Below, piece after piece: positions 318 to 8,070 of a stretch of 31,456 nucleotides of DNA. How positions within the stretch are numbered: the stretch's first letter is position 1; each line of letters opens with the position of its first letter. The position numbers and the translations under genes were made by a program. Origin of the DNA: a virus; IMG/VR virus record IMGVR_UViG_3300045988_128093, positions 1 through 31,456 of that record. One strand, 5' to 3'. The notes beneath the pieces were generated by a model. It worked only from the letters and a program-made list of their open reading frames with translations, did no database searches and was not told the origin of the DNA.

Positions 318-497
318 ATGGAACTAAAGGAAATGCGAAAGCTTCTTGGATTATCACAATCAGCATTTGGCAAAAGATACAACATACCTGTAAGGACAAT
401 TCAAGATTGGGAGAGTGGTCGTAGAAAAGCCCCCATATATGTTCTTGAATTATTAGAAAGAGCAGTCGTTGAAGACTCAAAAGCTGAAACATATTAA
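318..497 (+). CDS. 59-aa XRE-family helix-turn-helix protein
   Basis: Manual translation: MELKEMRKLLGLSQSAFGKRYNIPVRTIQDWESGRRKAPIYVLELLERAVVEDSKAETY. Typical HTH_3 motif (LGLSQ..FG....TIQDWE.G). RBS AAAGGAG upstream. Confidence 0.75.
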   Translation: MELKEMRKLLGLSQSAFGKRYNIPVRTIQDWESGRRKAPIYVLELLERAVVEDSKAETY

Positions 498-513
498 TTA
501 TGTATTTACGATG

Positions 514-546
514 AAAAGAGAGACGATTAAGTCTCTCTTTTTTATT
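514..546 (+). terminator. Rho-independent terminator of the micro-peptide/HTH cassette
   Basis: Stem AAGAGAGAC (516-524) / GTCTCTCTT (531-539), 6-nt loop, then a T-run. Confidence 0.8.
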
Positions 547-581
547 GCAAAATTGACCTCCTATTGTGATAATAGTGAAGA

Positions 582-613
582 AGAGCGAGCCAGTCGCAGG
601 CCCGCTCTTTTTT
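582..613. terminator. Second terminator hairpin, possibly bidirectional, between convergent units
   Basis: AGAGCG-a-GCC (582-591) pairs with GGC-c-CGCTCT (599-608), followed by T6 on the plus strand. An A-run precedes it as read on the minus strand, directly after the RHH stop codon. Confidence 0.65.
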
Positions 614-764
614 ATTTCTTTAACTCTTCAACCTTTTCGCTCACTAGCAACTCTATGTAGTTACTGAGCGACCTATTTTCGCTAGAGGCTAGCTCTGTTA
701 CTGCCTCCTTGAGTGACGGTGTAAGTCTTACCGCCACTCTTTCTGTTCTCTTCTCTTCTCCCAT
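612..764 (-). CDS. 50-aa ribbon-helix-helix (CopG/Arc/MetJ-type) DNA-binding protein
   Basis: Manual translation of the minus strand: MGEEKRTERVAVRLTPSLKEAVTELASSENRSLSNYIELLVSEKVEELKK. Classic RHH pattern (beta strand RVAVRL, then two helices). RBS AAAGAGAGGG. Not in the ORF track (<60 aa). Confidence 0.8.
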   Translation of the reverse strand: MGEEKRTERVAVRLTPSLKEAVTELASSENRSLSNYIELLVSEKVEELKK

Positions 765-778
765 AATATTCCCTCTCT

Positions 779-1387
779 TTAAATAAAATCGACGATATCG
801 TCAAAATCAATTAATTCAATGCGTGTAGCTTTTGAATAATCTAAATCTTCAATGATCGTATCATTATCAACGTCATAATATGCCTTATACACACCGTCAG
901 AGGTCACAACGTACTGATAAAAATCATTACCATCAAAGCATTCGTCCCAACCGAACATATCACCGATTATATAATCGCCATTTTCAGCCGTAACCGTCAT
1001 ATGTTCAGGTATTCCGTACTTGTTGCGGAACTTATCACAGTGATATTGTTCTAGTGAATATTTGTCAAGTGGTGCAAACTCGCCAATCTCATTAGTATTA
1101 GATATAAAATCTCCGTCCTCATCTACAACTTGTGATTGTAAATAAATCTCCTCAATTTCCAAGTTTTCACCGACATAACCATAATTAGAATGATATTCAG
1201 CAAAAGCCTTTTTTGCATCGTCTAAATTCTCAAACTGTGCCAAAAGTTCAGCGCCATCTTCACAGCCTATTATACTTCCCGGTATATAATTCTTTATTTC
1301 GTCCCTTTTAAATCTTCTGCTCAATTCCTTGTCGTATCTGTATATTGCGTATATAGTTCTTTCCATCGTTTTATCCTCCTTGAGCAT
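779..1387 (-). CDS. Highly acidic protein of unknown function (195-202 aa)
   Basis: ORF track. Two plausible starts, each with a good RBS: 1387 (GAGGAG) and 1366 (AAGGAGGA). Very rich in D/E. I recognise no motif. Confidence 0.7.
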   Translation of the reverse strand: MLKEDKTMERTIYAIYRYDKELSRRFKRDEIKNYIPGSIIGCEDGAELLAQFENLDDAKKAFAEYHSNYGYVGENLEIEEIYLQSQVVDEDGDFISNTNEIGEFAPLDKYSLEQYHCDKFRNKYGIPEHMTVTAENGDYIIGDMFGWDECFDGNDFYQYVVTSDGVYKAYYDVDNDTIIEDLDYSKATRIELIDFDDIVDFI

Positions 1388-1534: not shown

Positions 1535-1597
1535 TAACACGAGTTAGACAAGCAAAAGAAAAACACCGCAACTCGTTAGAATTGCAGTGTTTTGAGG

Positions 1598-1642
1598 TGG
1601 TGTCCCGAAGAGGATTCGAACCTCCGACACCCGCTTTAGGAG
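1598..1642 (-). other. attP core candidate: 3' 45 nt of a tRNA-Arg(CCU) (anticodon loop to CCA), not a complete tRNA
   Basis: Minus strand reads CTCCTAA-AGCGG-GTGTC-GGAGG-TTCGAAT-CCTCT-TCGGGAC-A-CCA. These are the anticodon loop with CCT, anticodon-stem 3' strand, variable loop, T arm, acceptor 3' strand, discriminator and CCA. The matching 5' strands (GTCCCGA, CCGCT) are absent upstream. Confidence 0.7.
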
Positions 1643-1698
1643 TACAACAGAGATTATTGATATTTCAACGCGCTGAAGAGGAAGTGCAACACCAGAAA

Positions 1699-2715
1699 TC
1701 ACATCAATGCAGCAGCTTGATTTATTAGCTCGAAATCAACGTGTGTATATATGTTGGCAGTCATAGCTATATCGGCATGGCCCATTAGATATTGAGCTGT
1801 TCGGATATCAACACCGCGCTTCTGTAAGTTGGTGCAGAATGTATGGCGCAAAGAGTATGCAGATATATCAGTTGCGAGAGGATAAGGCGGCAAGAGTTCA
1901 TTGCGATATACCTTGCACCCCATATCTATATTCATTAGCCTAGATAAGTGCGCCCAGGCTCTCCGCTTATTATCCTTGTTCAGTTCTTTGCCTTGCTGAT
2001 TTTTGCAAAGCAATTCGAACGGAGATAATTTGCGCGGTAACAATTTAGCGAGGCCATCAACGATAGGCACATATCTATCTGCTGCCTTTGTTTTAGTTCC
2101 GCGAATATGTAAATATCGCTCACCATCTCGCATGACTATATCACGAAATTCAACTGCAGAGGCTTCGGAAGGGCGGCATCCCGCATAATACATCAATGCG
2201 AAATATACGGGCACATAATGTTGATTAAGTACATTCAAGAAGTGCTGTTCTTCTGATGTAGTTAATGAGCGTCTAGGATTGTAATAGCCAGAAGGCTTTA
2301 CAAGATTTTCAGTAGGATCTATATTGATTAGCTTGTTGATTTTCGCATATTTGAAAATAAAACGCAGCATCTGATATGTATCATTGATAGTTGCTTTTGA
2401 TTTAGAGCCTTTTAAATTCAAAACGCGCTGACACATGATAGGAGTTACATCCTTAATCAATAAAGCACCAATCTCATTGAGCACATATGATTTTAGCTTC
2501 TGCAAATACTTCTCGCGTGTTATTTCGCTCTGATTTACCTTGTAGGTATCAACGCATTCAAGCGCCCATGATGCAACAGTGCGCCTTGCTGGATTCAGCA
2601 CCTCATCGCGCTCAAGCGCCTGTTTCTTCAAAATGAGCTTTTCGATAGCAGCACGCTCGGTTTTTCCGCGCACAAAATAGCGCTTGCCATTGTATGTAAA
2701 TGTTTTAGTAATCAT
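1699..2715 (-). CDS. int: Tyrosine recombinase / phage integrase
   Basis: 338 aa. The C-terminal catalytic region carries RPSE...R, SLRHTFCTNL and LMGHADIAMTANIYTHV (the R-H-R-Y signature). Confidence 0.95.
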   Translation of the reverse strand: MITKTFTYNGKRYFVRGKTERAAIEKLILKKQALERDEVLNPARRTVASWALECVDTYKVNQSEITREKYLQKLKSYVLNEIGALLIKDVTPIMCQRVLNLKGSKSKATINDTYQMLRFIFKYAKINKLINIDPTENLVKPSGYYNPRRSLTTSEEQHFLNVLNQHYVPVYFALMYYAGCRPSEASAVEFRDIVMRDGERYLHIRGTKTKAADRYVPIVDGLAKLLPRKLSPFELLCKNQQGKELNKDNKRRAWAHLSRLMNIDMGCKVYRNELLPPYPLATDISAYSLRHTFCTNLQKRGVDIRTAQYLMGHADIAMTANIYTHVDFELINQAAALM

Positions 2716-2747
2716 TAAGGACCTCGATTAAATAAAAAGTTGTTTTT

Positions 2748-3533
2748 TTATTCTTCGATTTCGTCGTCTTCTGTTACTTCAGATTTCTTTTCCGCTGACA
2801 GGCTTTCATTCTTTTTCACATTATTCTTTACCCAACATGTTTGAACTCCATCAATATGTTCTTTTAAAGAATCGGCAATACTTGACATGCCCATTGGATC
2901 AAGTATAACATCAATGCCTTCGCGACGAGCAACCTTTGCCGCTGGAACAAAATCACTATCTCCTGCAATTAAAATTATTTGGTCAACTTGTCTTCTGTAT
3001 GCAAGAGATGCTATGTCAATTCCTAATTTCATATCTACACCTTTTTGCCTCCAGCTAGGAGAAAAATCCATCTCTGTTAAATCATCTAGTGTGATTTGGT
3101 TATGTAATAAAGCTTTCATTCTGTCTGGCTTAATTGCGAAGGTCGCACCGGAATCAAGCAGATAACCTTTACGAAGACACATTTTTCGCTGCTCCTTGAG
3201 GTAACTAAAGAATTCCAGTGTCCATTTATATGTATCTGTTTTCTCAAAATCTATATTTTTCTTTAAATAAGGATGATAGACAACCTTGGATAATGGATTA
3301 CAGTCATAATAGAATATTCTATAAAGTTGTCTATCAGAACCAACGCAGTCCTTTGGATGAAGTTGTTTATTATCAGAATAAATATAAACATCATTTGTTC
3401 TAACCTTTTGTATATGCGACATACAATAGGCGTATAATTCGTTGGCTCTTGATTTAGGTTCTTTATGTCCCCAACGAGTTGCGGCTCTTTTTCTATAAAA
3501 ACCACCATCAACAAATATAGCTGTTTTGTTCAT
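2748..3533 (-). CDS. NYN-domain (LabA/PIN-like) putative ribonuclease with an acidic C-terminal tail
   Basis: N-terminal AIFVDGGF and KGVDMKLGIDIASLA...IILIAGDSDFVPAAKVARREGIDV match the NYN (PF01936) acidic-residue pattern. RBS AGGAGG. Confidence 0.75.
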   Translation of the reverse strand: MNKTAIFVDGGFYRKRAATRWGHKEPKSRANELYAYCMSHIQKVRTNDVYIYSDNKQLHPKDCVGSDRQLYRIFYYDCNPLSKVVYHPYLKKNIDFEKTDTYKWTLEFFSYLKEQRKMCLRKGYLLDSGATFAIKPDRMKALLHNQITLDDLTEMDFSPSWRQKGVDMKLGIDIASLAYRRQVDQIILIAGDSDFVPAAKVARREGIDVILDPMGMSSIADSLKEHIDGVQTCWVKNNVKKNESLSAEKKSEVTEDDEIEE

Positions 3534-3544
3534 TAATACCTCCT

Positions 3545-3605
3545 AAAATTAAAAGCTCTAGACCTCAGCCACACCCATATCCGCGGGTTGCCTACTATCT
3601 AGAGC
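3545..3605 (-). promoter_or_regulatory. Terminator-like structured leader upstream of the NYN gene
   Basis: On the minus strand, GCTCTAGA ... TCTAGAGC (8-bp closing stem) encloses an imperfect inner hairpin (GGCAACCC / GGGUGU). It is followed by CUUUUAAUUUU and then the NYN RBS. Confidence 0.45.
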
Positions 3606-3626
3606 AAAATAAACTTTATTATTAAT

Positions 3627-3663
3627 GTACACGAAGTGTACCACTCCAGACACAAAAAGTCAA
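3627..3663 (-). promoter_or_regulatory. Candidate promoter (TTGACT-17-TACACT) overlapped by the perfect palindrome GTACAC-GAA-GTGTAC
   Basis: -35 at 3663-3658 and a weak -10 at 3640-3635. The 15-bp palindrome at 3627..3641 overlaps the -10, like an operator. Confidence 0.35.
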
Positions 3664-3684
3664 TATATAAATATGTTTTTTTAT

Positions 3685-4104
3685 TTACTTTTTCACCTTT
3701 TCAAGCTTTATTGTCTTTTCTACACCCATTGCAGAGGCTTTGTATTTGATATATTTGCCGTCGTAAGTAAATTCTTTTGTATCGTCTTGAGATGCCAATA
3801 AAGAGCTTTCATGCTTTTCTTTATTAGCTGTTGAAGTCCATTTATAAACCTTCGTATGTTTTGTTGGCTTTTCATACGTTCCAGACCAATATAGAGCCTT
3901 CGTGTCATCGCTCATCCAATAGATCTCAATAGTATCATCTGTAACGGTCGCTTGCTGCCATCCATCTTCGTCTCCGTTGACTTGCTTCCACTCGCCAGTT
4001 AGGTTATATGGCTTCTTTGGCTTGGATGCTTTCTGCTTGCTATTGCAAGCTGTCGTTCCAAATACAACGGCTAGAATTACTAATAGAGTGATTAATTTCT
4101 TCAT
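3685..4104 (-). CDS. Prophage lipoprotein (candidate superinfection-exclusion protein)
   Basis: Start moved to MKKLITLLVILAVVFGTTAC (signal peptide plus lipobox Cys), with RBS AAAGGATGAG. It sits between the immunity genes and int. Confidence 0.75.
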   Translation of the reverse strand: MKKLITLLVILAVVFGTTACNSKQKASKPKKPYNLTGEWKQVNGDEDGWQQATVTDDTIEIYWMSDDTKALYWSGTYEKPTKHTKVYKWTSTANKEKHESSLLASQDDTKEFTYDGKYIKYKASAMGVEKTIKLEKVKK

Positions 4105-4168
4105 AATATTCTCATCCTTTCTTAAACACAGAGCAGGTCCCAACACTCTATAAACGACAATCAATTAC

Positions 4169-4420
4169 CTAAACGCACAGTGGTGATGCTGTTGTGTGAT
4201 GCCTTAATCCCTCAAGCTCATCAATAGACATCATAGAAGAGAAATCACAGTTGCTGATATGCTCCAGCTCGTGTGCATAAGATGAGCGGTGCCGCTCTGC
4301 GGTATCTCTGGCATTTAAAATAATAGTGTAAAAAATCTCACCATTCGCATCTATGCAATAAGTTGTAACACCATGCACACGATGCGGAAGGTCAATGAAT
4401 TTAACTTGAATGCAGTTCAT
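4169..4420 (-). CDS. immA: Short ImmA/IrrE-like zinc metallopeptidase (anti-repressor protease)
   Basis: HEXXH motif (YAHELEHI). Its start overlaps the upstream XRE repressor stop by 1 nt (TAATG). The repressor lacks an S24 domain. Confidence 0.6.
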   Translation of the reverse strand: MNCIQVKFIDLPHRVHGVTTYCIDANGEIFYTIILNARDTAERHRSSYAHELEHISNCDFSSMMSIDELEGLRHHTTASPLCV

Positions 4421-4791
4421 TAATCTTCATCTCCGAATTGGTCTTTTTTTAACTTTTCAAGAATAGAAGCAACGCTCAATATATCTTCTTTAGTCACATT
4501 GCGCGAAGCATCAAATAGCACCTTTAATTCTGGGCGCTCGTACATCTCTTTAGCGGCTTCTGCTGCATCTGGATCTAAATAATACGTTGATTTATTTTCT
4601 CTACCGAGCAAATAATCAATAGATACATTGAAAAAATCAGCAATCTCTTCTTGGCTCTCAAAACTTGGCTTGCGATCACCTGTTTCATATGCACCAATTA
4701 ACGATTTTGAAACTCCGAGCGCCTTTGCAAGAGAAACTTGCGAATAACCGCGCTTTATTCTTAATTCTTTTAAAACATCTTTAAATTCCAT
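4420..4791 (-). CDS. XRE-family CI-like repressor (ImmR-type)
   Basis: Start moved to MEFKDVLKELRIKRGYSQVSLAKALGVSKSLIGAYETGDRKPS (HTH_3). Divergent from the Cro-like gene. Confidence 0.85.
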   Translation of the reverse strand: MEFKDVLKELRIKRGYSQVSLAKALGVSKSLIGAYETGDRKPSFESQEEIADFFNVSIDYLLGRENKSTYYLDPDAAEAAKEMYERPELKVLFDASRNVTKEDILSVASILEKLKKDQFGDED

Positions 4792-4829
4792 TTTGCAATT
4801 TCCCTTCCTTATATACCCACATATAAAGT

Positions 4830-4912
4830 ACACCTAAAGTGGAATAAAAGCAATAAAAAATCACTAAAAGTGGAAAAAAGTACTTGACACCCACTATGAA
4901 TGGACTTATACT
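4830..4912. promoter_or_regulatory. Immunity switch region: PR promoter plus three related 13-bp operators
   Basis: PR is TTGACA (4884-4889), 17 nt, TATACT (4907-4912). The operators resemble CCACTAAAAGTGG and lie at 4830-4842, 4861-4873 and 4891-4903, the last inside the PR spacer. Confidence 0.65.
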
Positions 4913-5137: not shown

Positions 5138-5150
5138 CCACTAAAAGTGG
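5138..5150. promoter_or_regulatory. Fourth, perfectly palindromic operator copy, CCACT-AAA-AGTGG
   Basis: An exact inverted repeat located 6 nt after the cro stop codon. Confidence 0.5.
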
Positions 5151-5731: not shown

Positions 5732-5971
5732 ATGGGGAAATATAGAAGTACAGCATTTAGAGGGTTTCTTGATAAAGAGGTTGCGCAAGAGATAGCAGAT
5801 TTTATAGGAGCAGTAACTGAACGAGAAGCGATAGTGATCGTGTCTTGTCCTCGTGGGAAATCCCACATACATATTTTAGCGACGAATGAATCTGTAAGTG
5901 ATAAAGATAAAACAGAGATTAATAATTGGATAAAAAAAGAGGGTGGAGTTGTATATAGGTCAAGAAAATAG
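5732..5971 (+). CDS. Hypothetical protein (79 aa)
   Basis: Start moved to MGKYRS, with RBS GGGAGG. Confidence 0.55.
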   Translation: MGKYRSTAFRGFLDKEVAQEIADFIGAVTEREAIVIVSCPRGKSHIHILATNESVSDKDKTEINNWIKKEGGVVYRSRK

Positions 5972-6889: not shown

Positions 6890-7044
6890 TGATAGCAATG
6901 TTAATGCTGATTATATCGCTGATACTTGGCATCGCAGCCATGTGGATGCACTACCGCCAGCGATACGAAATATCGAACATATTATTCTTGATGTTCGATA
7001 TCGGAGTGATCGCAACAATCCTTCTTCCTGTGGTGTGTGTGTAA
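6886..7044 (+). CDS. 52-aa small membrane protein (2 predicted TM helices)
   Basis: Start moved to the ATG at 6886, 6 nt after AGGAGGA. Overlaps the preceding stop codon. Confidence 0.5.
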   Translation: MMIAMLMLIISLILGIAAMWMHYRQRYEISNILFLMFDIGVIATILLPVVCV

Positions 7045-7416
7045 ATGAAGGGGAACTATTACGATAACTGCGCCTATCCAAAGCCTAAAAGCACGAAAAA
7101 GAAAAAGAAGTCGAATGGCTGGAAAGACAAGGCGAACAGATTTTGTGCATACTGTGGAAAACCATACGCAGAGCGACATGAGGTATTTGGCGGCTCAAAT
7201 CGTCAAATTAGTATCGACAATGAGTTTCAAGTTGATGTGTGCAGAGCACACCATGAAGAGCTACACAGCAACTCGACAGAGTGGGCGAAGGCTGAAAATG
7301 AAAGGCTGAAAAAACACTATCAACAGCAGTATGAATCGCAATTAATTGATGAAGGTTATACAAAAGAACAAGCGAGAAGAGCATGGATGTTGCTCATCGG
7401 TCGCAACTACTTATAA
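7045..7416 (+). CDS. HNH/NinG-like zinc-binding nuclease-like protein
   Basis: CAYCG...HEVFGG.N......VCRAHHEELH pattern (CxxC ... H ... N ... CxxHH..H). Confidence 0.45.
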   Translation: MKGNYYDNCAYPKPKSTKKKKKSNGWKDKANRFCAYCGKPYAERHEVFGGSNRQISIDNEFQVDVCRAHHEELHSNSTEWAKAENERLKKHYQQQYESQLIDEGYTKEQARRAWMLLIGRNYL

Positions 7417-7428
7417 GGAGGAAACAAT

Positions 7429-7509
7429 ATGAATTGGACAGCAGTTGTTATCACAACACTAATTTGCGTAACAATCGCATTTTTGGCAGCGATTGGAAGC
7501 GATAAATAA
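7429..7509 (+). CDS. 26-aa membrane micro-peptide (MNWTAVVITTLICVTIAFLAAIGSDK)
   Basis: Manual translation. RBS AGGAGGA 6 nt upstream. Its stop overlaps the next ATG. Confidence 0.5.
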   Translation: MNWTAVVITTLICVTIAFLAAIGSDK

Positions 7510-7895
7510 TGAAGGGCAAAGCTGAATGCGATGCATGCGGCTGGGAACACGGAACACCGGGCGAAAATCGAGCATTTAGATGGTGCAGACGAATCAGAGG
7601 CGATGTGTGCGATAAGTGTTGCAAGGCATGTGAGCATAACGATGATTGGCATTGCAACTATGACAAAATGGGGCGATTAAAAATGAGGGAGCTTATTTTT
7701 AAAAATCGCATGGAAGAAATCAAGCTAGAGCGTTACAAGTCGCAATTAAAGCATGTGAAATCGCCAATAATTGCGGAGCATATCAGAGGCATTATATCAA
7801 TCATCGAATCACAGATTGAAGAGCGCGAAGCTTTGGAAGAAAAGATATGGAGTGGCGAAATCAATTATCTGGAGAAAGAAAATGAACGAGAATGA
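7509..7895 (+). CDS. Hypothetical Cys-rich protein
   Basis: ORF track. Ten cysteines in the first 50 residues. Confidence 0.6.
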   Translation: MKGKAECDACGWEHGTPGENRAFRWCRRIRGDVCDKCCKACEHNDDWHCNYDKMGRLKMRELIFKNRMEEIKLERYKSQLKHVKSPIIAEHIRGIISIIESQIEEREALEEKIWSGEINYLEKENERE

Positions 7896-8070
7896 AGTTA
7901 TATATGAAGCTGACGAATACGACAGAGCATCAGTTGAATTTTTAGCCAGCGAATTCATGCTTGAAAACAGAAGACAGCCAACAATTGAAGAGTTGCATGT
8001 GCTGCAAACAGGCTTCACGGCTGGAATTAAATTTATGAACAAGCTAATCGAGGAGAGCTGCAATGAATGA
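7882..8070 (+). CDS. Hypothetical protein (62 aa)
   Basis: Start moved to MNENEV, with RBS GGAG. Confidence 0.5.
   Translation: MNENEVIYEADEYDRASVEFLASEFMLENRRQPTIEELHVLQTGFTAGIKFMNKLIEESCNE

What the first reader, a model, noticed from the sequence alone, without database searches (positions are those of the whole stretch)
2748..3663. NYN-domain nuclease between the immunity genes and integrase, behind a terminator-like structured leader
The 261-aa protein carries the NYN/LabA PIN-like ribonuclease signature (AIFVDGGF ... IAGDSDFVP) plus a long acidic tail. It occupies the classic defence/moron slot between the repressor-ImmA-lipoprotein genes and int. By eye the gene looks more AT-rich than its neighbours. 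Upstream is a candidate promoter overlapped by a perfect palindrome (GTACAC-GAA-GTGTAC). Next is a long hairpin (8-bp closing stem, inner imperfect stem) followed by a U-tract immediately before the RBS. This resembles an attenuator or riboswitch-like leader, or a terminator insulating NYN and int from the immunity transcript. NYN proteins are poorly characterised in phage biology. It could be a stand-alone abortive-infection/defence RNase, or an RNase controlling int expression.
Basis: partly seen in the sequence, partly recalled or inferred. Interest (0 to 1): 0.65.

Follow-up and report, generated by a model that had tools for sequence, protein, structure and literature searches.

The report
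Conserved small RNA guarding prophage nuclease
The prophage gene is a real NYN-type nuclease, and the hairpin in front of it is a structured small RNA that sits in front of this nuclease family in viruses and bacteria of at least six phyla, so the two probably work as an RNA-controlled toxin or anti-phage module that nobody has characterised.

Summary
Window 2748..3533 (minus strand) encodes a 261-aa NYN/PIN-like nuclease. It lies between the repressor/ImmA/lipoprotein genes and the integrase, is mildly AT-rich, and is preceded by a promoter, a long hairpin and a U-tract.

The hairpin (3546..3610) is not a riboswitch or an ordinary terminator. It is a divergent member of Rfam TEG147 (RF03535), a 60-nt Staphylococcus aureus sRNA of unknown function. 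A covariance model built here finds exactly one copy, on the same strand, usually 15-33 nt before the start codon of most NYN homologues examined. These come from at least six phyla.

- 16 of 17 base pairs show compensatory changes.
- The internal loop (AGUA/GA) fits a sarcin-ricin motif, and an apical AU is also conserved.
- A strong sigma-70 promoter lies upstream in 81% of loci.
- In S. aureus the true TEG147 lies 18 nt before the NYN gene.
- Leader plus gene (2739..3693) moves as one cassette between unrelated phages, usually next to repressors and integrases.

Best reading (inferred, about 0.4): a type-III-like RNA-antitoxin/nuclease-toxin module that a prophage carries for defence or addiction. 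No experiment supports this yet.

The parts
2739..3693 (-). Mobile cassette: promoter, TEG147-like RNA and NYN gene
   Evidence: This is the only stretch shared (955 nt, 96.8% identity) with IMG/VR contig L006, whose immunity genes and integrase are otherwise unrelated.
3635..3663 (-). Sigma-70-type promoter: -35 TTGACT 3663..3658, 17-nt spacer, TG 3643..3642, -10 TACACT 3640..3635. The predicted transcription start is near 3628.
   Evidence: Consensus scan. An equivalent strong promoter lies within 90 nt upstream of the motif in 81% of 52 homologous loci, against 6% of shuffles. The start site has not been mapped.
3627..3641 (.). Perfect palindrome GTACAC-N3-GTGTAC overlapping the -10 and +1 positions
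   Evidence: Unique in the window. There are 12 such 6-N3-6 palindromes in the window. It is unlike the immunity operators. Other loci often carry a hairpin between the -10 and the motif, so it could be that hairpin if transcription starts further upstream.
3546..3610 (-). TEG147-family structured RNA. P1 stem 3605..3597 pairs with 3563..3555. The sarcin-ricin-like internal loop is A3596 G U A3593 opposite G3566 A3565. The inner stem is G3591 C3590 with G3569 C3568, then C3587 to C3585 with G3576 to G3574. The apical loop is 3584..3577, with the conserved AU at 3580..3579. The U-tract is 3554..3545.
   Evidence: Covariance model R1 scores 56.9 bits, E=8e-13. Rfam RF03535 scores 20.2 bits, E=0.088, below the gathering score of 56.1. 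Covariation; loop conservation.
3539..3544 (-). Shine-Dalgarno AGGAGG, 5 nt before the ATG
   Evidence: Read directly from the sequence. It is not paired within the conserved hairpin.
2748..3533 (-). NYN/PIN-like nuclease gene, 261 aa, with invariant acidic residues D9, D77, D167, D173, D192, D194, D208 and D212
1699..2715 (-). Tyrosine integrase (a neighbour, not part of the cassette)
   Evidence: PF00589 at E=2.8e-23. There is no terminator between the NYN stop codon and the int ribosome-binding site.
3685..4794 (-). Immunity genes upstream (neighbours): XRE repressor 4420..4794, ImmA-like 4169..4420, lipoprotein 3685..4104
   Evidence: Pfam HTH_3 at E=3e-16, a weak Peptidase_M78 hit, and lipoprotein-signal hits.

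Best explanation
The finding is one mobile two-part module carried in the lysogeny region of a temperate phage.

A strong constitutive-type promoter drives a transcript of about 65 nt. Its body is a conserved hairpin of the TEG147 family, with a sarcin-ricin-type internal loop and a conserved apical loop, ending in a U-tract. I infer that most transcripts stop there and accumulate as a small RNA, while a minority read through into the NYN nuclease gene, which starts about 20 nt later.

I further infer that the RNA is the nuclease's own partner. It would bind the nuclease, and perhaps be cut by it, through the two conserved loops. That would keep the nuclease silent, both in cis by termination and in trans as an RNA antitoxin. 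This is the logic of type III toxin-antitoxin systems and of the RCd22/AbiF module.

When the supply of the short RNA fails, for example after shut-off by an infecting phage or loss of the element, the NYN RNase would be freed and would cut cellular or phage RNA. The result would be abortive infection or addiction.

Shown here: the anatomy, RNA structure by covariation, strict RNA-gene coupling, promoter conservation, cassette mobility, conserved catalytic residues, and identity with the expressed S. aureus sRNA. Inferred: RNA-protein binding, toxicity, the trigger and the phenotype.
For: 1. The RNA structure is real. 16 of 17 pairs show compensatory changes. Double-change cells number 130 against 37+-7 in shuffles, and 165 against 44+-7 in the second alignment, with 0 of 500 shuffles reaching either value. 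Slid-partner controls collapse.

2. The unpaired nucleotides are the most conserved ones. In the 5' strand of the loop, A is present in 52 of 52 sequences and U in 50 of 52. In the 3' strand, G is present in 50 of 52 and A in 51 of 52. The apical AU is present in 50 of 52. This suggests a recognition surface rather than a bare terminator. JAR3D independently rates the RF03535 loop as a strong sarcin-ricin match (PMC13085918).

3. The coupling is strict. There is one model hit per locus, always on the NYN strand and just upstream of the gene, in most of the loci searched. No other significant hit appears in about 1.8 Mb of searched sequence. A protein-independent DNA pattern scan of IMG/VR gave 9 true motifs. 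All 9 are followed by a NYN gene, while none of the 111 chance matches has one.

4. The motif-bearing loci span Bacillota, Bacteroidota, alpha-, beta- and gamma-Proteobacteria, Zixibacteria, Spirochaetia and Planctomycetales, at 38-58% protein identity.

5. A near-consensus promoter sits upstream in 81% of loci. The tail after the stem is U-rich, with at least 5 U in 8 nt, in 39 of 52 loci. A strong promoter followed by a terminator and then a toxin gene is the layout I recall for ToxIN.

6. In S. aureus the bona fide TEG147 (86.6 bits) lies 18 nt before the NYN start codon. It is reported as a discrete 60-nt 'bona fide sRNA' (PMC5826253). The short RNA therefore exists in vivo in at least one homologous locus.

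7. The catalytic aspartates are invariant.

8. The cassette is mobile and sits in slots expressed in lysogens: repressor-NYN-int, cI-NYN-N, a P2-type locus beside a toxin-antitoxin pair, and the nuSa-alpha-like island beside GmrSD.

9. There is a precedent. The abiF RNA motif upstream of AbiF proved to be an RNA antitoxin that acts in cis and in trans (PMC12373285).
Against: - There is no experimental evidence for toxicity, RNA binding or phage resistance, for this locus or any homologue. Literature searches found nothing.
- The RNA is a single hairpin. By my recollection, ToxI, CptI and TenpI antitoxins are tandem repeat arrays, and this is not one.
- The NYN fold is unrelated to ToxN, AbiQ or AbiF toxins.
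- PADLOC gives only weak partial hits (E=1e-6 and 1e-3).
- Some NYN homologues lack the motif or carry a diverged hairpin: the E. coli lambdoid phages, the icd-adjacent Rhodanobacteraceae loci, and L014, L015 and L027. The RNA is therefore not indispensable to every family member.
- In 13 of 52 loci the U-tract is weak.
- G-U pairs outnumber A-C mismatches only 35 to 21.
- All the data are equally compatible with a purely cis-acting autoregulatory leader.
Confidence: 0.4

Rival explanations
1. A purely cis-acting autoregulatory leader. The NYN protein binds or cleaves the hairpin in its own mRNA, or stabilises the terminator, to hold its own level low. The short RNA has no role in trans. The nuclease serves the phage itself, for example in RNA turnover during lysogeny or induction, rather than in defence.
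For: The same structural and syntenic evidence applies. Rfam files TEG147 as 'Cis-reg'. From memory, many RNases autoregulate through structured untranslated regions. There is a single hairpin and no repeats.
Against: A near-consensus promoter feeding a terminator is wasteful for simple negative feedback. The S. aureus element is scored as an independent sRNA. The module is horizontally mobile and sits in moron slots in unrelated phages and islands, which argues against a housekeeping phage role.
Confidence: 0.25
2. A factor-dependent attenuator unrelated to NYN binding. The hairpin is a terminator whose read-through is set by a host or phage protein, such as an antiterminator of a superinfecting phage or a ribosomal or other RNA-binding protein that recognises the sarcin-ricin loop. 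NYN would then be made only on a signal.
For: Terminator-like anatomy directly before the ribosome-binding site. From memory, sarcin-ricin motifs are common protein-binding sites. The motif recurs in hosts of very different phyla, so a universal host protein could be the ligand.
Against: The motif is found only with NYN genes. A general host-factor element would be expected upstream of other genes too. No alternative antiterminator pairing is conserved.
Confidence: 0.15
3. A metabolite-sensing riboswitch, one of the first reader's suggestions.
For: Conserved unpaired nucleotides inside a terminator-proximal structure.
Against: The conserved unit is about 55 nt and is the terminator stem itself. 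There is no separate aptamer, no conserved competing structure, and sometimes no upstream RNA at all. No Rfam riboswitch matches. A nuclease moron has no obvious metabolite logic.
Confidence: 0.05
4. An ordinary intrinsic terminator that only insulates NYN and int from the immunity operon, conserved merely by common descent.
For: No other terminator lies between the lipoprotein stop codon (3685) and the hairpin. The tail is U-rich.
Against: The promoter lies upstream of the hairpin, not downstream. The loops are conserved while the stems covary, at 38-58% protein identity and across phyla. The hairpin travels with NYN into unrelated contexts.
Confidence: 0.05

Closest known systems
Rfam RF03535 TEG147 (S. 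aureus sRNA Teg147, also called srn_0960 or sRNA85)
   Same: Same architecture and conserved nucleotides: an outer stem, an AGUA/GA internal loop, an inner hairpin and a U-tract. The position just upstream of a NYN gene is also the same. The S. aureus instance scores 86.6 bits with Rfam and 51.5 bits with my model, and the window scores 56.9 bits with my model.
   Different: The Rfam model is narrow. The window scores only 20.2 bits against a gathering score of 56.1, and the ten other loci searched with Rfam score at most 52.6 bits (five match, at 32.6-52.6 bits). The papers found here give no function, and none of the passages retrieved on Teg147 mentions the NYN link.
Type III toxin-antitoxin / abortive-infection systems (ToxIN, CptIN, TenpIN)
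   Same: The layout is promoter, structured non-coding RNA, terminator, then a ribonuclease gene on mobile elements. The expected excess of RNA over toxin mRNA is also shared.
   Different: The RNA is a single hairpin that is itself the terminator, not a tandem repeat array. The toxin is NYN/PIN-like, not of the ToxN/AbiQ fold. No binding or toxicity data exist.
RCd22 / AbiF(Cd) of a C. difficile prophage (abiF RNA motif), PMC12373285
   Same: It is prophage-encoded. A conserved RNA motif lies in the leader of a putative RNase toxin. That RNA is reported to lower transcription of the toxin gene and to neutralise the protein in cis and in trans by direct binding.
   Different: The protein family (Abi_2, HEPN-like) and the RNA motif are unrelated. 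Here nothing has been tested.
Lambda rexAB and other lysogeny-module morons
   Same: In ev099 the NYN gene lies directly after cI and before N. The 48 Stx2a-converting phage records match the NYN protein identically but are unannotated at that position and were not inspected. In Gram-positive phages it lies between the repressor and int. From memory, these are positions expressed in lysogens and known to hold exclusion genes.
   Different: There is no sequence or mechanistic similarity to RexAB. Expression here comes from the cassette's own promoter.
NYN/LabA-like (PF01936) and PIN-like RNases such as VapC
   Same: The fold and the acidic active site are shared. From memory, some VapC toxins (VapC20, VapC26) cut the sarcin-ricin loop of 23S rRNA, which makes a sarcin-ricin-like decoy RNA an attractive idea.
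   Different: This family has a long family-specific N-terminal insert (about residues 20-110) containing the LYRIFYYDCPP block. The substrate is unknown.

Membership tests
Pfam PF01936 NYN domain | Profile match above the curated cut-off | tested here: met
   48.9 bits against 24.2, E=1.3e-12, residues 111-224.
Pfam PF01936 NYN domain | PIN-like/NYN fold | tested here: met
   The AF2 model has pLDDT 83.8. The only PDB match at E<=0.001 is 2qip, VPA0982 (E=2.3e-5, TM-score on the target 0.61). By my recollection this is a LabA/DUF88-type protein.
Pfam PF01936 NYN domain | Conserved acidic catalytic residues | tested here: met
   D9, D77, D167, D173, D192 and D194 are invariant in two alignments, of 23 and 47 sequences. 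Activity was not assayed.
Rfam RF03535 TEG147 | Score at or above the gathering threshold (56.1 bits) | tested here: not met
   The window scores 20.2 bits, E=0.088. By Rfam's own criterion it is not a member.
Rfam RF03535 TEG147 | Shared secondary structure and conserved loop nucleotides with true members | tested here: met
   One covariance model (R1) captures the window (56.9 bits), Javan85 (62.3 bits) and the S. aureus TEG147 locus (51.5 bits).
Rfam RF03535 TEG147 | Same genomic position as true members | tested here: met
   The S. aureus TEG147 ends 18 nt before the NYN start codon. The window's conserved stem ends 21 nt before its start codon.
Type III toxin-antitoxin | Antitoxin is an array of tandem direct repeats | tested here: not met
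   There is one motif copy per locus. The leader has no tandem repeats.
Type III toxin-antitoxin | Terminator between the RNA and the toxin gene | tested here: met
   A hairpin plus a U-rich tail lies directly before the ribosome-binding site in the window and in 39 of 52 loci. Termination itself has not been measured here.
Type III toxin-antitoxin | Toxin of the ToxN/AbiQ/CptN/TenpN endoribonuclease families | tested here: not met
   The protein is NYN/PIN-like. PADLOC gives no hit to type III toxins.
Type III toxin-antitoxin | The RNA binds and neutralises the toxic protein | not testable with these tools
   This needs toxicity rescue and binding assays.
Riboswitch / classical attenuator | A conserved sensor domain plus mutually exclusive terminator and antiterminator folds | tested here: not met
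   Only the terminator-like hairpin is conserved. The upstream RNA varies from about 0 to 50 nt with no conserved sequence. No Rfam riboswitch matches.
Known anti-phage defence systems (PADLOC-DB v2) | Full-length match to a defence protein model | tested here: inconclusive
   There are only partial weak hits: 'NYN' PDLC01154 at E=9.7e-7 over residues 158-210, and HEC-09 at E=1.2e-3.

The most novel reading that the evidence does not exclude
The TEG147-family hairpin and the NYN nuclease form a new, very widespread class of RNA-protein toxin-antitoxin or abortive-infection system. The family has roughly 7,000-8,000 or more protein clusters at 90% identity, more than 500 IMG/VR stretches that encode a relative, and members in at least six phyla. 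In this reading a single small RNA carrying a sarcin-ricin-type loop acts as antitoxin. It may do so as a decoy that mimics the nuclease's real target, for example the 23S rRNA sarcin-ricin loop, which I recall some PIN-domain VapC toxins cut. Loss of the RNA during phage infection would unleash the RNase.
Probability: 0.3. Interest if true: 0.85.

Novelty: new variant of a known kind. Interest (0 to 1): 0.68.

Why it matters
If the RNA does control the nuclease, this would add a large and phylogenetically broad family to the small set of RNA-antitoxin (type III-like) systems. It would give a function to an orphan S. aureus sRNA, Teg147. It would also give a function to a PHROG of unknown function that sits in the lysogeny modules of many temperate phages. 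These include Stx2a-converting phages of E. coli, although those loci carry a diverged hairpin.

The hypothesis is cheap to test. The module has one gene and one 65-nt RNA, with defined loop mutations to make. It also shows that Rfam's TEG147 model covers only a sliver of the real family.

Tried and rejected
- Near-identity DNA search of the phage database with the 3.8-kb region found no match.
- PDB sequence search with the protein found nothing meaningful.
- Full-window Rfam scans showed nothing at the leader. Only a scan restricted to the leader exposed the weak TEG147 hit.
- Palindrome as an operator: rejected as unsupported. It has a single copy, is unlike the CAC(T/C)(A/T)AAAGTGG operators, and 12 equivalent palindromes occur in the window.
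- Riboswitch or antiterminator: no conserved upstream element.
- An RNase dedicated to int control: the context is not conserved.
- Tandem-repeat antitoxin: absent.
- A small peptide in the leader (MGVAEV, starting at the AUG in the apical region): the AUG is absent from most of the 52 aligned homologues, so it was ignored.
- The strand test by G-U against A-C counts is only weakly informative, 35 to 21.
- Literature searches for NYN together with prophage, defence, abortive infection or type III TA gave nothing relevant.
- The E. coli lambdoid leader has no Rfam match and no model hit, only a plain long hairpin.
- The locus tag and expression level of the S. aureus NYN gene could not be retrieved.
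Full report
**1. What is there**

All genes of the lysogeny module lie on the minus strand:
- an XRE repressor, 4420..4794
- a small ImmA-like protein, 4169..4420
- a lipoprotein, 3685..4104
- the 261-aa ORF 2748..3533
- a tyrosine integrase, 1699..2715

The ORF is a NYN-domain protein. Pfam PF01936 matches at 48.9 bits against a cut-off of 24.2. PHROG phrog_5783, of unknown function, matches the full length at E=5e-79. An AlphaFold2 model built from 47 homologues has pLDDT 83.8, and its only convincing PDB neighbour is the NYN/LabA-like protein 2qip. Two alignments show invariant aspartates at D9, D77, D167, D173, D192 and D194, so an active nuclease is expected.

The acidic C-terminal tail exists but is disordered and clade-specific. 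The gene is mildly AT-rich: GC is 0.352 against 0.406 for the window, the 2.6th percentile.

**2. The leader**

Reading the minus strand, the leader contains in order:
- TTGACT, 17 nt, TGgTACACT (3663..3635)
- a perfect palindrome at 3627..3641
- an A-rich stretch
- a 51-nt interrupted hairpin, 3605..3555
- UUUUAAUUUU
- AGGAGG
- the ATG at 3533

The fold is better than shuffles, with a z-score of -3.7.

The palindrome alone is not remarkable. The window holds 12 perfect 6-N3-6 palindromes, there is no second copy of this one, and it does not resemble the three immunity operators.

**3. The hairpin is a conserved RNA coupled to NYN genes**

Upstream regions of NYN homologues from IMG/VR, GTDB genomes and GenBank phages show the same design. 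The outer stem varies in sequence. The 5' strand of the internal loop is (U/C)AGUA(A/G/C). The inner hairpin is short, with an apical ..AU.. The 3' strand is (C/U)GA(A). The stem then closes and a U-rich tail follows.

A 41-sequence alignment with a hand-assigned structure gives the following:
- 85% of cells are paired.
- 16 of 17 pairs show compensatory changes.
- 130 cells have a change on both sides, against 37+-7 in shuffles (0 of 500 shuffles reach this).
- Pairing drops sharply when the 3' partners are slid.

I chose the seed sequences partly by looking for a stem, so the percentage paired is biased upward. The compensatory changes are not affected by that choice.

- It finds exactly one hit per locus, always on the NYN strand and ending shortly before the gene, in most of the loci searched.
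- The window hit is 3546..3610 at 56.9 bits.
- Hits include loci outside the seed set: Planctomycetales, Spirochaetia, Acetobacteraceae and S. aureus.
- The 52-sequence alignment fitted to the model gives 165 double-change cells against 44+-7 in shuffles.

The best-conserved positions are unpaired ones:
- 5' strand of the loop: A in 52 of 52 and U in 50 of 52.
- 3' strand of the loop: G in 50 of 52 and A in 51 of 52.
- Apical loop: AU in 50 of 52.

I also ran a scan that did not use the protein. The DNA pattern AGTAAGC..GCYGAAYCC returned 120 stretches from IMG/VR. Nine are true motifs by the model, and all nine are followed directly by a NYN gene. None of the other 111 encodes one.

**4. Identity with a known RNA**

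A Rfam scan restricted to the leader gives a sub-threshold match to RF03535 TEG147 (20.2 bits, gathering score 56.1, E=0.088) with the same architecture. Javan85 scores 52.6 bits and four other loci score 32.6-36.2 bits.

Teg147 is a 60-nt S. aureus RNA. It is listed as a 'bona fide sRNA' without validation or function (PMC5826253), is located on a genomic island (PMC3053349), and was entered into Rfam during a course (PMC7779021).

I fetched a S. aureus contig that encodes a NYN homologue. The true TEG147 (86.6 bits) lies at L229 5923..5982, which is 18 nt before the NYN start codon and behind a TTGAAA-17-TGTGATAAT promoter. GmrSD lies upstream and the ssl genes lie downstream.

A 2026 survey of 3D motifs in Rfam lists the RF03535 loop as a strong sarcin-ricin match (PMC13085918). 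This agrees with the AGUA/GA conservation seen here.

The window's hairpin is therefore a divergent member of a family far broader than Rfam's model. None of the passages on Teg147 that I retrieved mentions its link to NYN genes, and the targeted literature searches found nothing on the protein family.

**5. Transcription signals**

A promoter scoring at least 10 on my scale lies within 90 nt upstream in 81% of 52 loci, against 6% of shuffles. Most carry TTGACA with a 17-nt spacer.

The -10 element ends 7-59 nt before the stem. In about ten loci it ends 14 nt or less before the stem. In those loci the conserved RNA is essentially the hairpin plus its tail, which matches the 60-nt size of Teg147. 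It also leaves no room for a riboswitch aptamer or an antiterminator.

A further hairpin between the -10 and the motif is enriched: at least 7 bp in 60% of loci, against 28% of shuffles. The window's palindrome could be the equivalent of this hairpin if transcription starts further upstream than predicted. This remains unresolved.

The tail has at least 5 U in 8 nt in 39 of 52 loci. The start codon usually follows 15-33 nt after the stem. The Shine-Dalgarno sequence is not sequestered by the conserved hairpin.

**6. Mobility and context**

IMG/VR contig L006 shares only window 3693..2739 with this window, at 96.8% identity. Its immunity genes and integrase are unrelated. Leader and gene therefore move as one cassette.

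Among 49 loci that are non-redundant at 90% identity:
- The downstream neighbour is a tyrosine recombinase in 18 of 42 cases and a serine recombinase in 4 of 42.
- The upstream neighbour often carries HTH_3 (11 of 47) or Peptidase_S24 (6 of 47).

Other contexts are as follows:
- In E. coli phage ev099 the gene lies directly after cI and before N.
- The 48 Stx2a-converting phage records match the NYN protein identically (39.8% identity to the window protein). They carry no annotation at that position, and I did not inspect their context.
- In P2-like phiE202 it lies beside a toxin-antitoxin pair and int.
- In Javan85 it lies between the repressor and int.

The family is large: 6,919 and 7,822 clusters at 90% identity were returned by two searches that are limited by their candidate lists, and 513 IMG/VR stretches encode a relative.

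The window's own protein occurs in human gut and oral viromes. Some contigs are circular-form phage, with int adjacent to the lysis genes.

**7. Exceptions**

- The model finds no motif in ev099 (L004), the only E. coli lambdoid locus fetched, in the icd-adjacent Rhodanobacteraceae loci, or in L014, L015 and L027.
- Of these, L004, L014, L015 and L027 still carry a long interrupted hairpin with a U-tract before the gene. L015 and L027 have CGAC in place of AGUA.
- The Rhodanobacteraceae locus that I folded (L018) shows only a plain hairpin after icd, with no U-tract.

**8. Interpretation**

The data establish a conserved RNA-gene pair. They do not establish its function.

The layout is a strong promoter, a stable structured RNA that ends in a terminator-like tail, and then a nuclease gene with intact catalytic residues, all on a mobile cassette placed in lysogen-expressed slots. 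This is the logic of type III toxin-antitoxin and abortive-infection systems. It is also the logic of the recently described RCd22/AbiF module, where a leader motif proved to be an RNA antitoxin acting in cis and in trans (PMC12373285).

I therefore favour an RNA-controlled NYN toxin that serves prophage-mediated defence or addiction, at a confidence of about 0.4. The main alternative is a purely cis-acting autoregulatory leader (0.25). The module is not a formal member of type III TA: it has no repeats and a different toxin fold.

The idea that the RNA mimics a sarcin-ricin-type target of the nuclease rests on my recollection of VapC20/26 biology. It is speculation.

**9. Verdict**

The 'riboswitch/attenuator' and 'int control' ideas are not supported. 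The interesting result is the broad and strict association of a TEG147-type sarcin-ricin hairpin with this NYN family.

Noticed in passing
window 1555..1650 (minus strand): The 3' part of a tRNA gene lies just downstream of int. It has a T-arm GGAGGTTCGAATCCTCT, an acceptor end with ..GGGACACCA, and an anticodon-loop-like CUCCUAA that suggests Arg-CCU. A strong terminator hairpin follows at 1593..1560. This is probably the attP core, which would rebuild the tRNA on integration. ARAGORN calls no full tRNA. IMG/VR L006, which has a different integrase, shares this stretch at 81% identity.
   Followed up: partly
window 4831..4842, 4862..4873, 5138..5149: Three copies of CAC(T/C)(A/T)AAAGTGG lie in and just beyond the divergent repressor/cro region. 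They are probably the immunity operators. They are unrelated to the palindrome at the NYN promoter.
   Followed up: partly
L005 and L007, about 5796..5928, corresponding to the window 2738/2739 junction: Close relatives carry an extra segment of about 133 nt between the NYN stop codon and int. The window lacks it, so here the NYN gene abuts the int ribosome-binding site with no terminator between them.
   Followed up: no
L008 3807..3872: A DUF3800-VIII RNA (Rfam RF03075, 41.1 bits, just above its gathering score of 40.2) lies about 1 kb upstream of the TEG147-like motif in an IMG/VR contig. It is a second orphan structured RNA in the same lysogeny region.
   Followed up: no
L229 4750..4850 (S. 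aureus): An azaaromatic (yjdF) riboswitch (98.9 bits) lies upstream of the DUF2992 and 2-thiouracil-desulfurase-like genes that precede Teg147 and the NYN gene. It is a known element, noted only for context.
   Followed up: no
window 510..619 (+): A weak sub-threshold Rfam hit to the L20 leader (28.7 bits against 58.7, E=0.074). It overlaps what look like terminator hairpins after the small HTH gene at 318..497, so it is probably a chance match.
   Followed up: no
window 779..1387 (-): A 202-aa ORF on the far side of attP has no hit in Pfam, PHROGs, NCBIfam or PADLOC. It is conserved at 99% in IMG/VR L005.
   Followed up: partly
L018-L024 (Rhodanobacteraceae and unclassified Proteobacteria): In these genomes the NYN gene lies directly downstream of isocitrate dehydrogenase (icd), which I recall as a classic prophage integration site. 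The TEG147-like motif is absent.
   Followed up: no
P1 stem, alignment A5 columns 12-13 paired with 84-85: Many Firmicute-type motifs carry one or two U-U or U-C mismatches at the same place in the middle of the outer stem (CCCCUGG/CCUGGGG, CCCUUGG/CCUUGGG), where others have Watson-Crick pairs. This may be a second non-canonical feature of the RNA.
   Followed up: no
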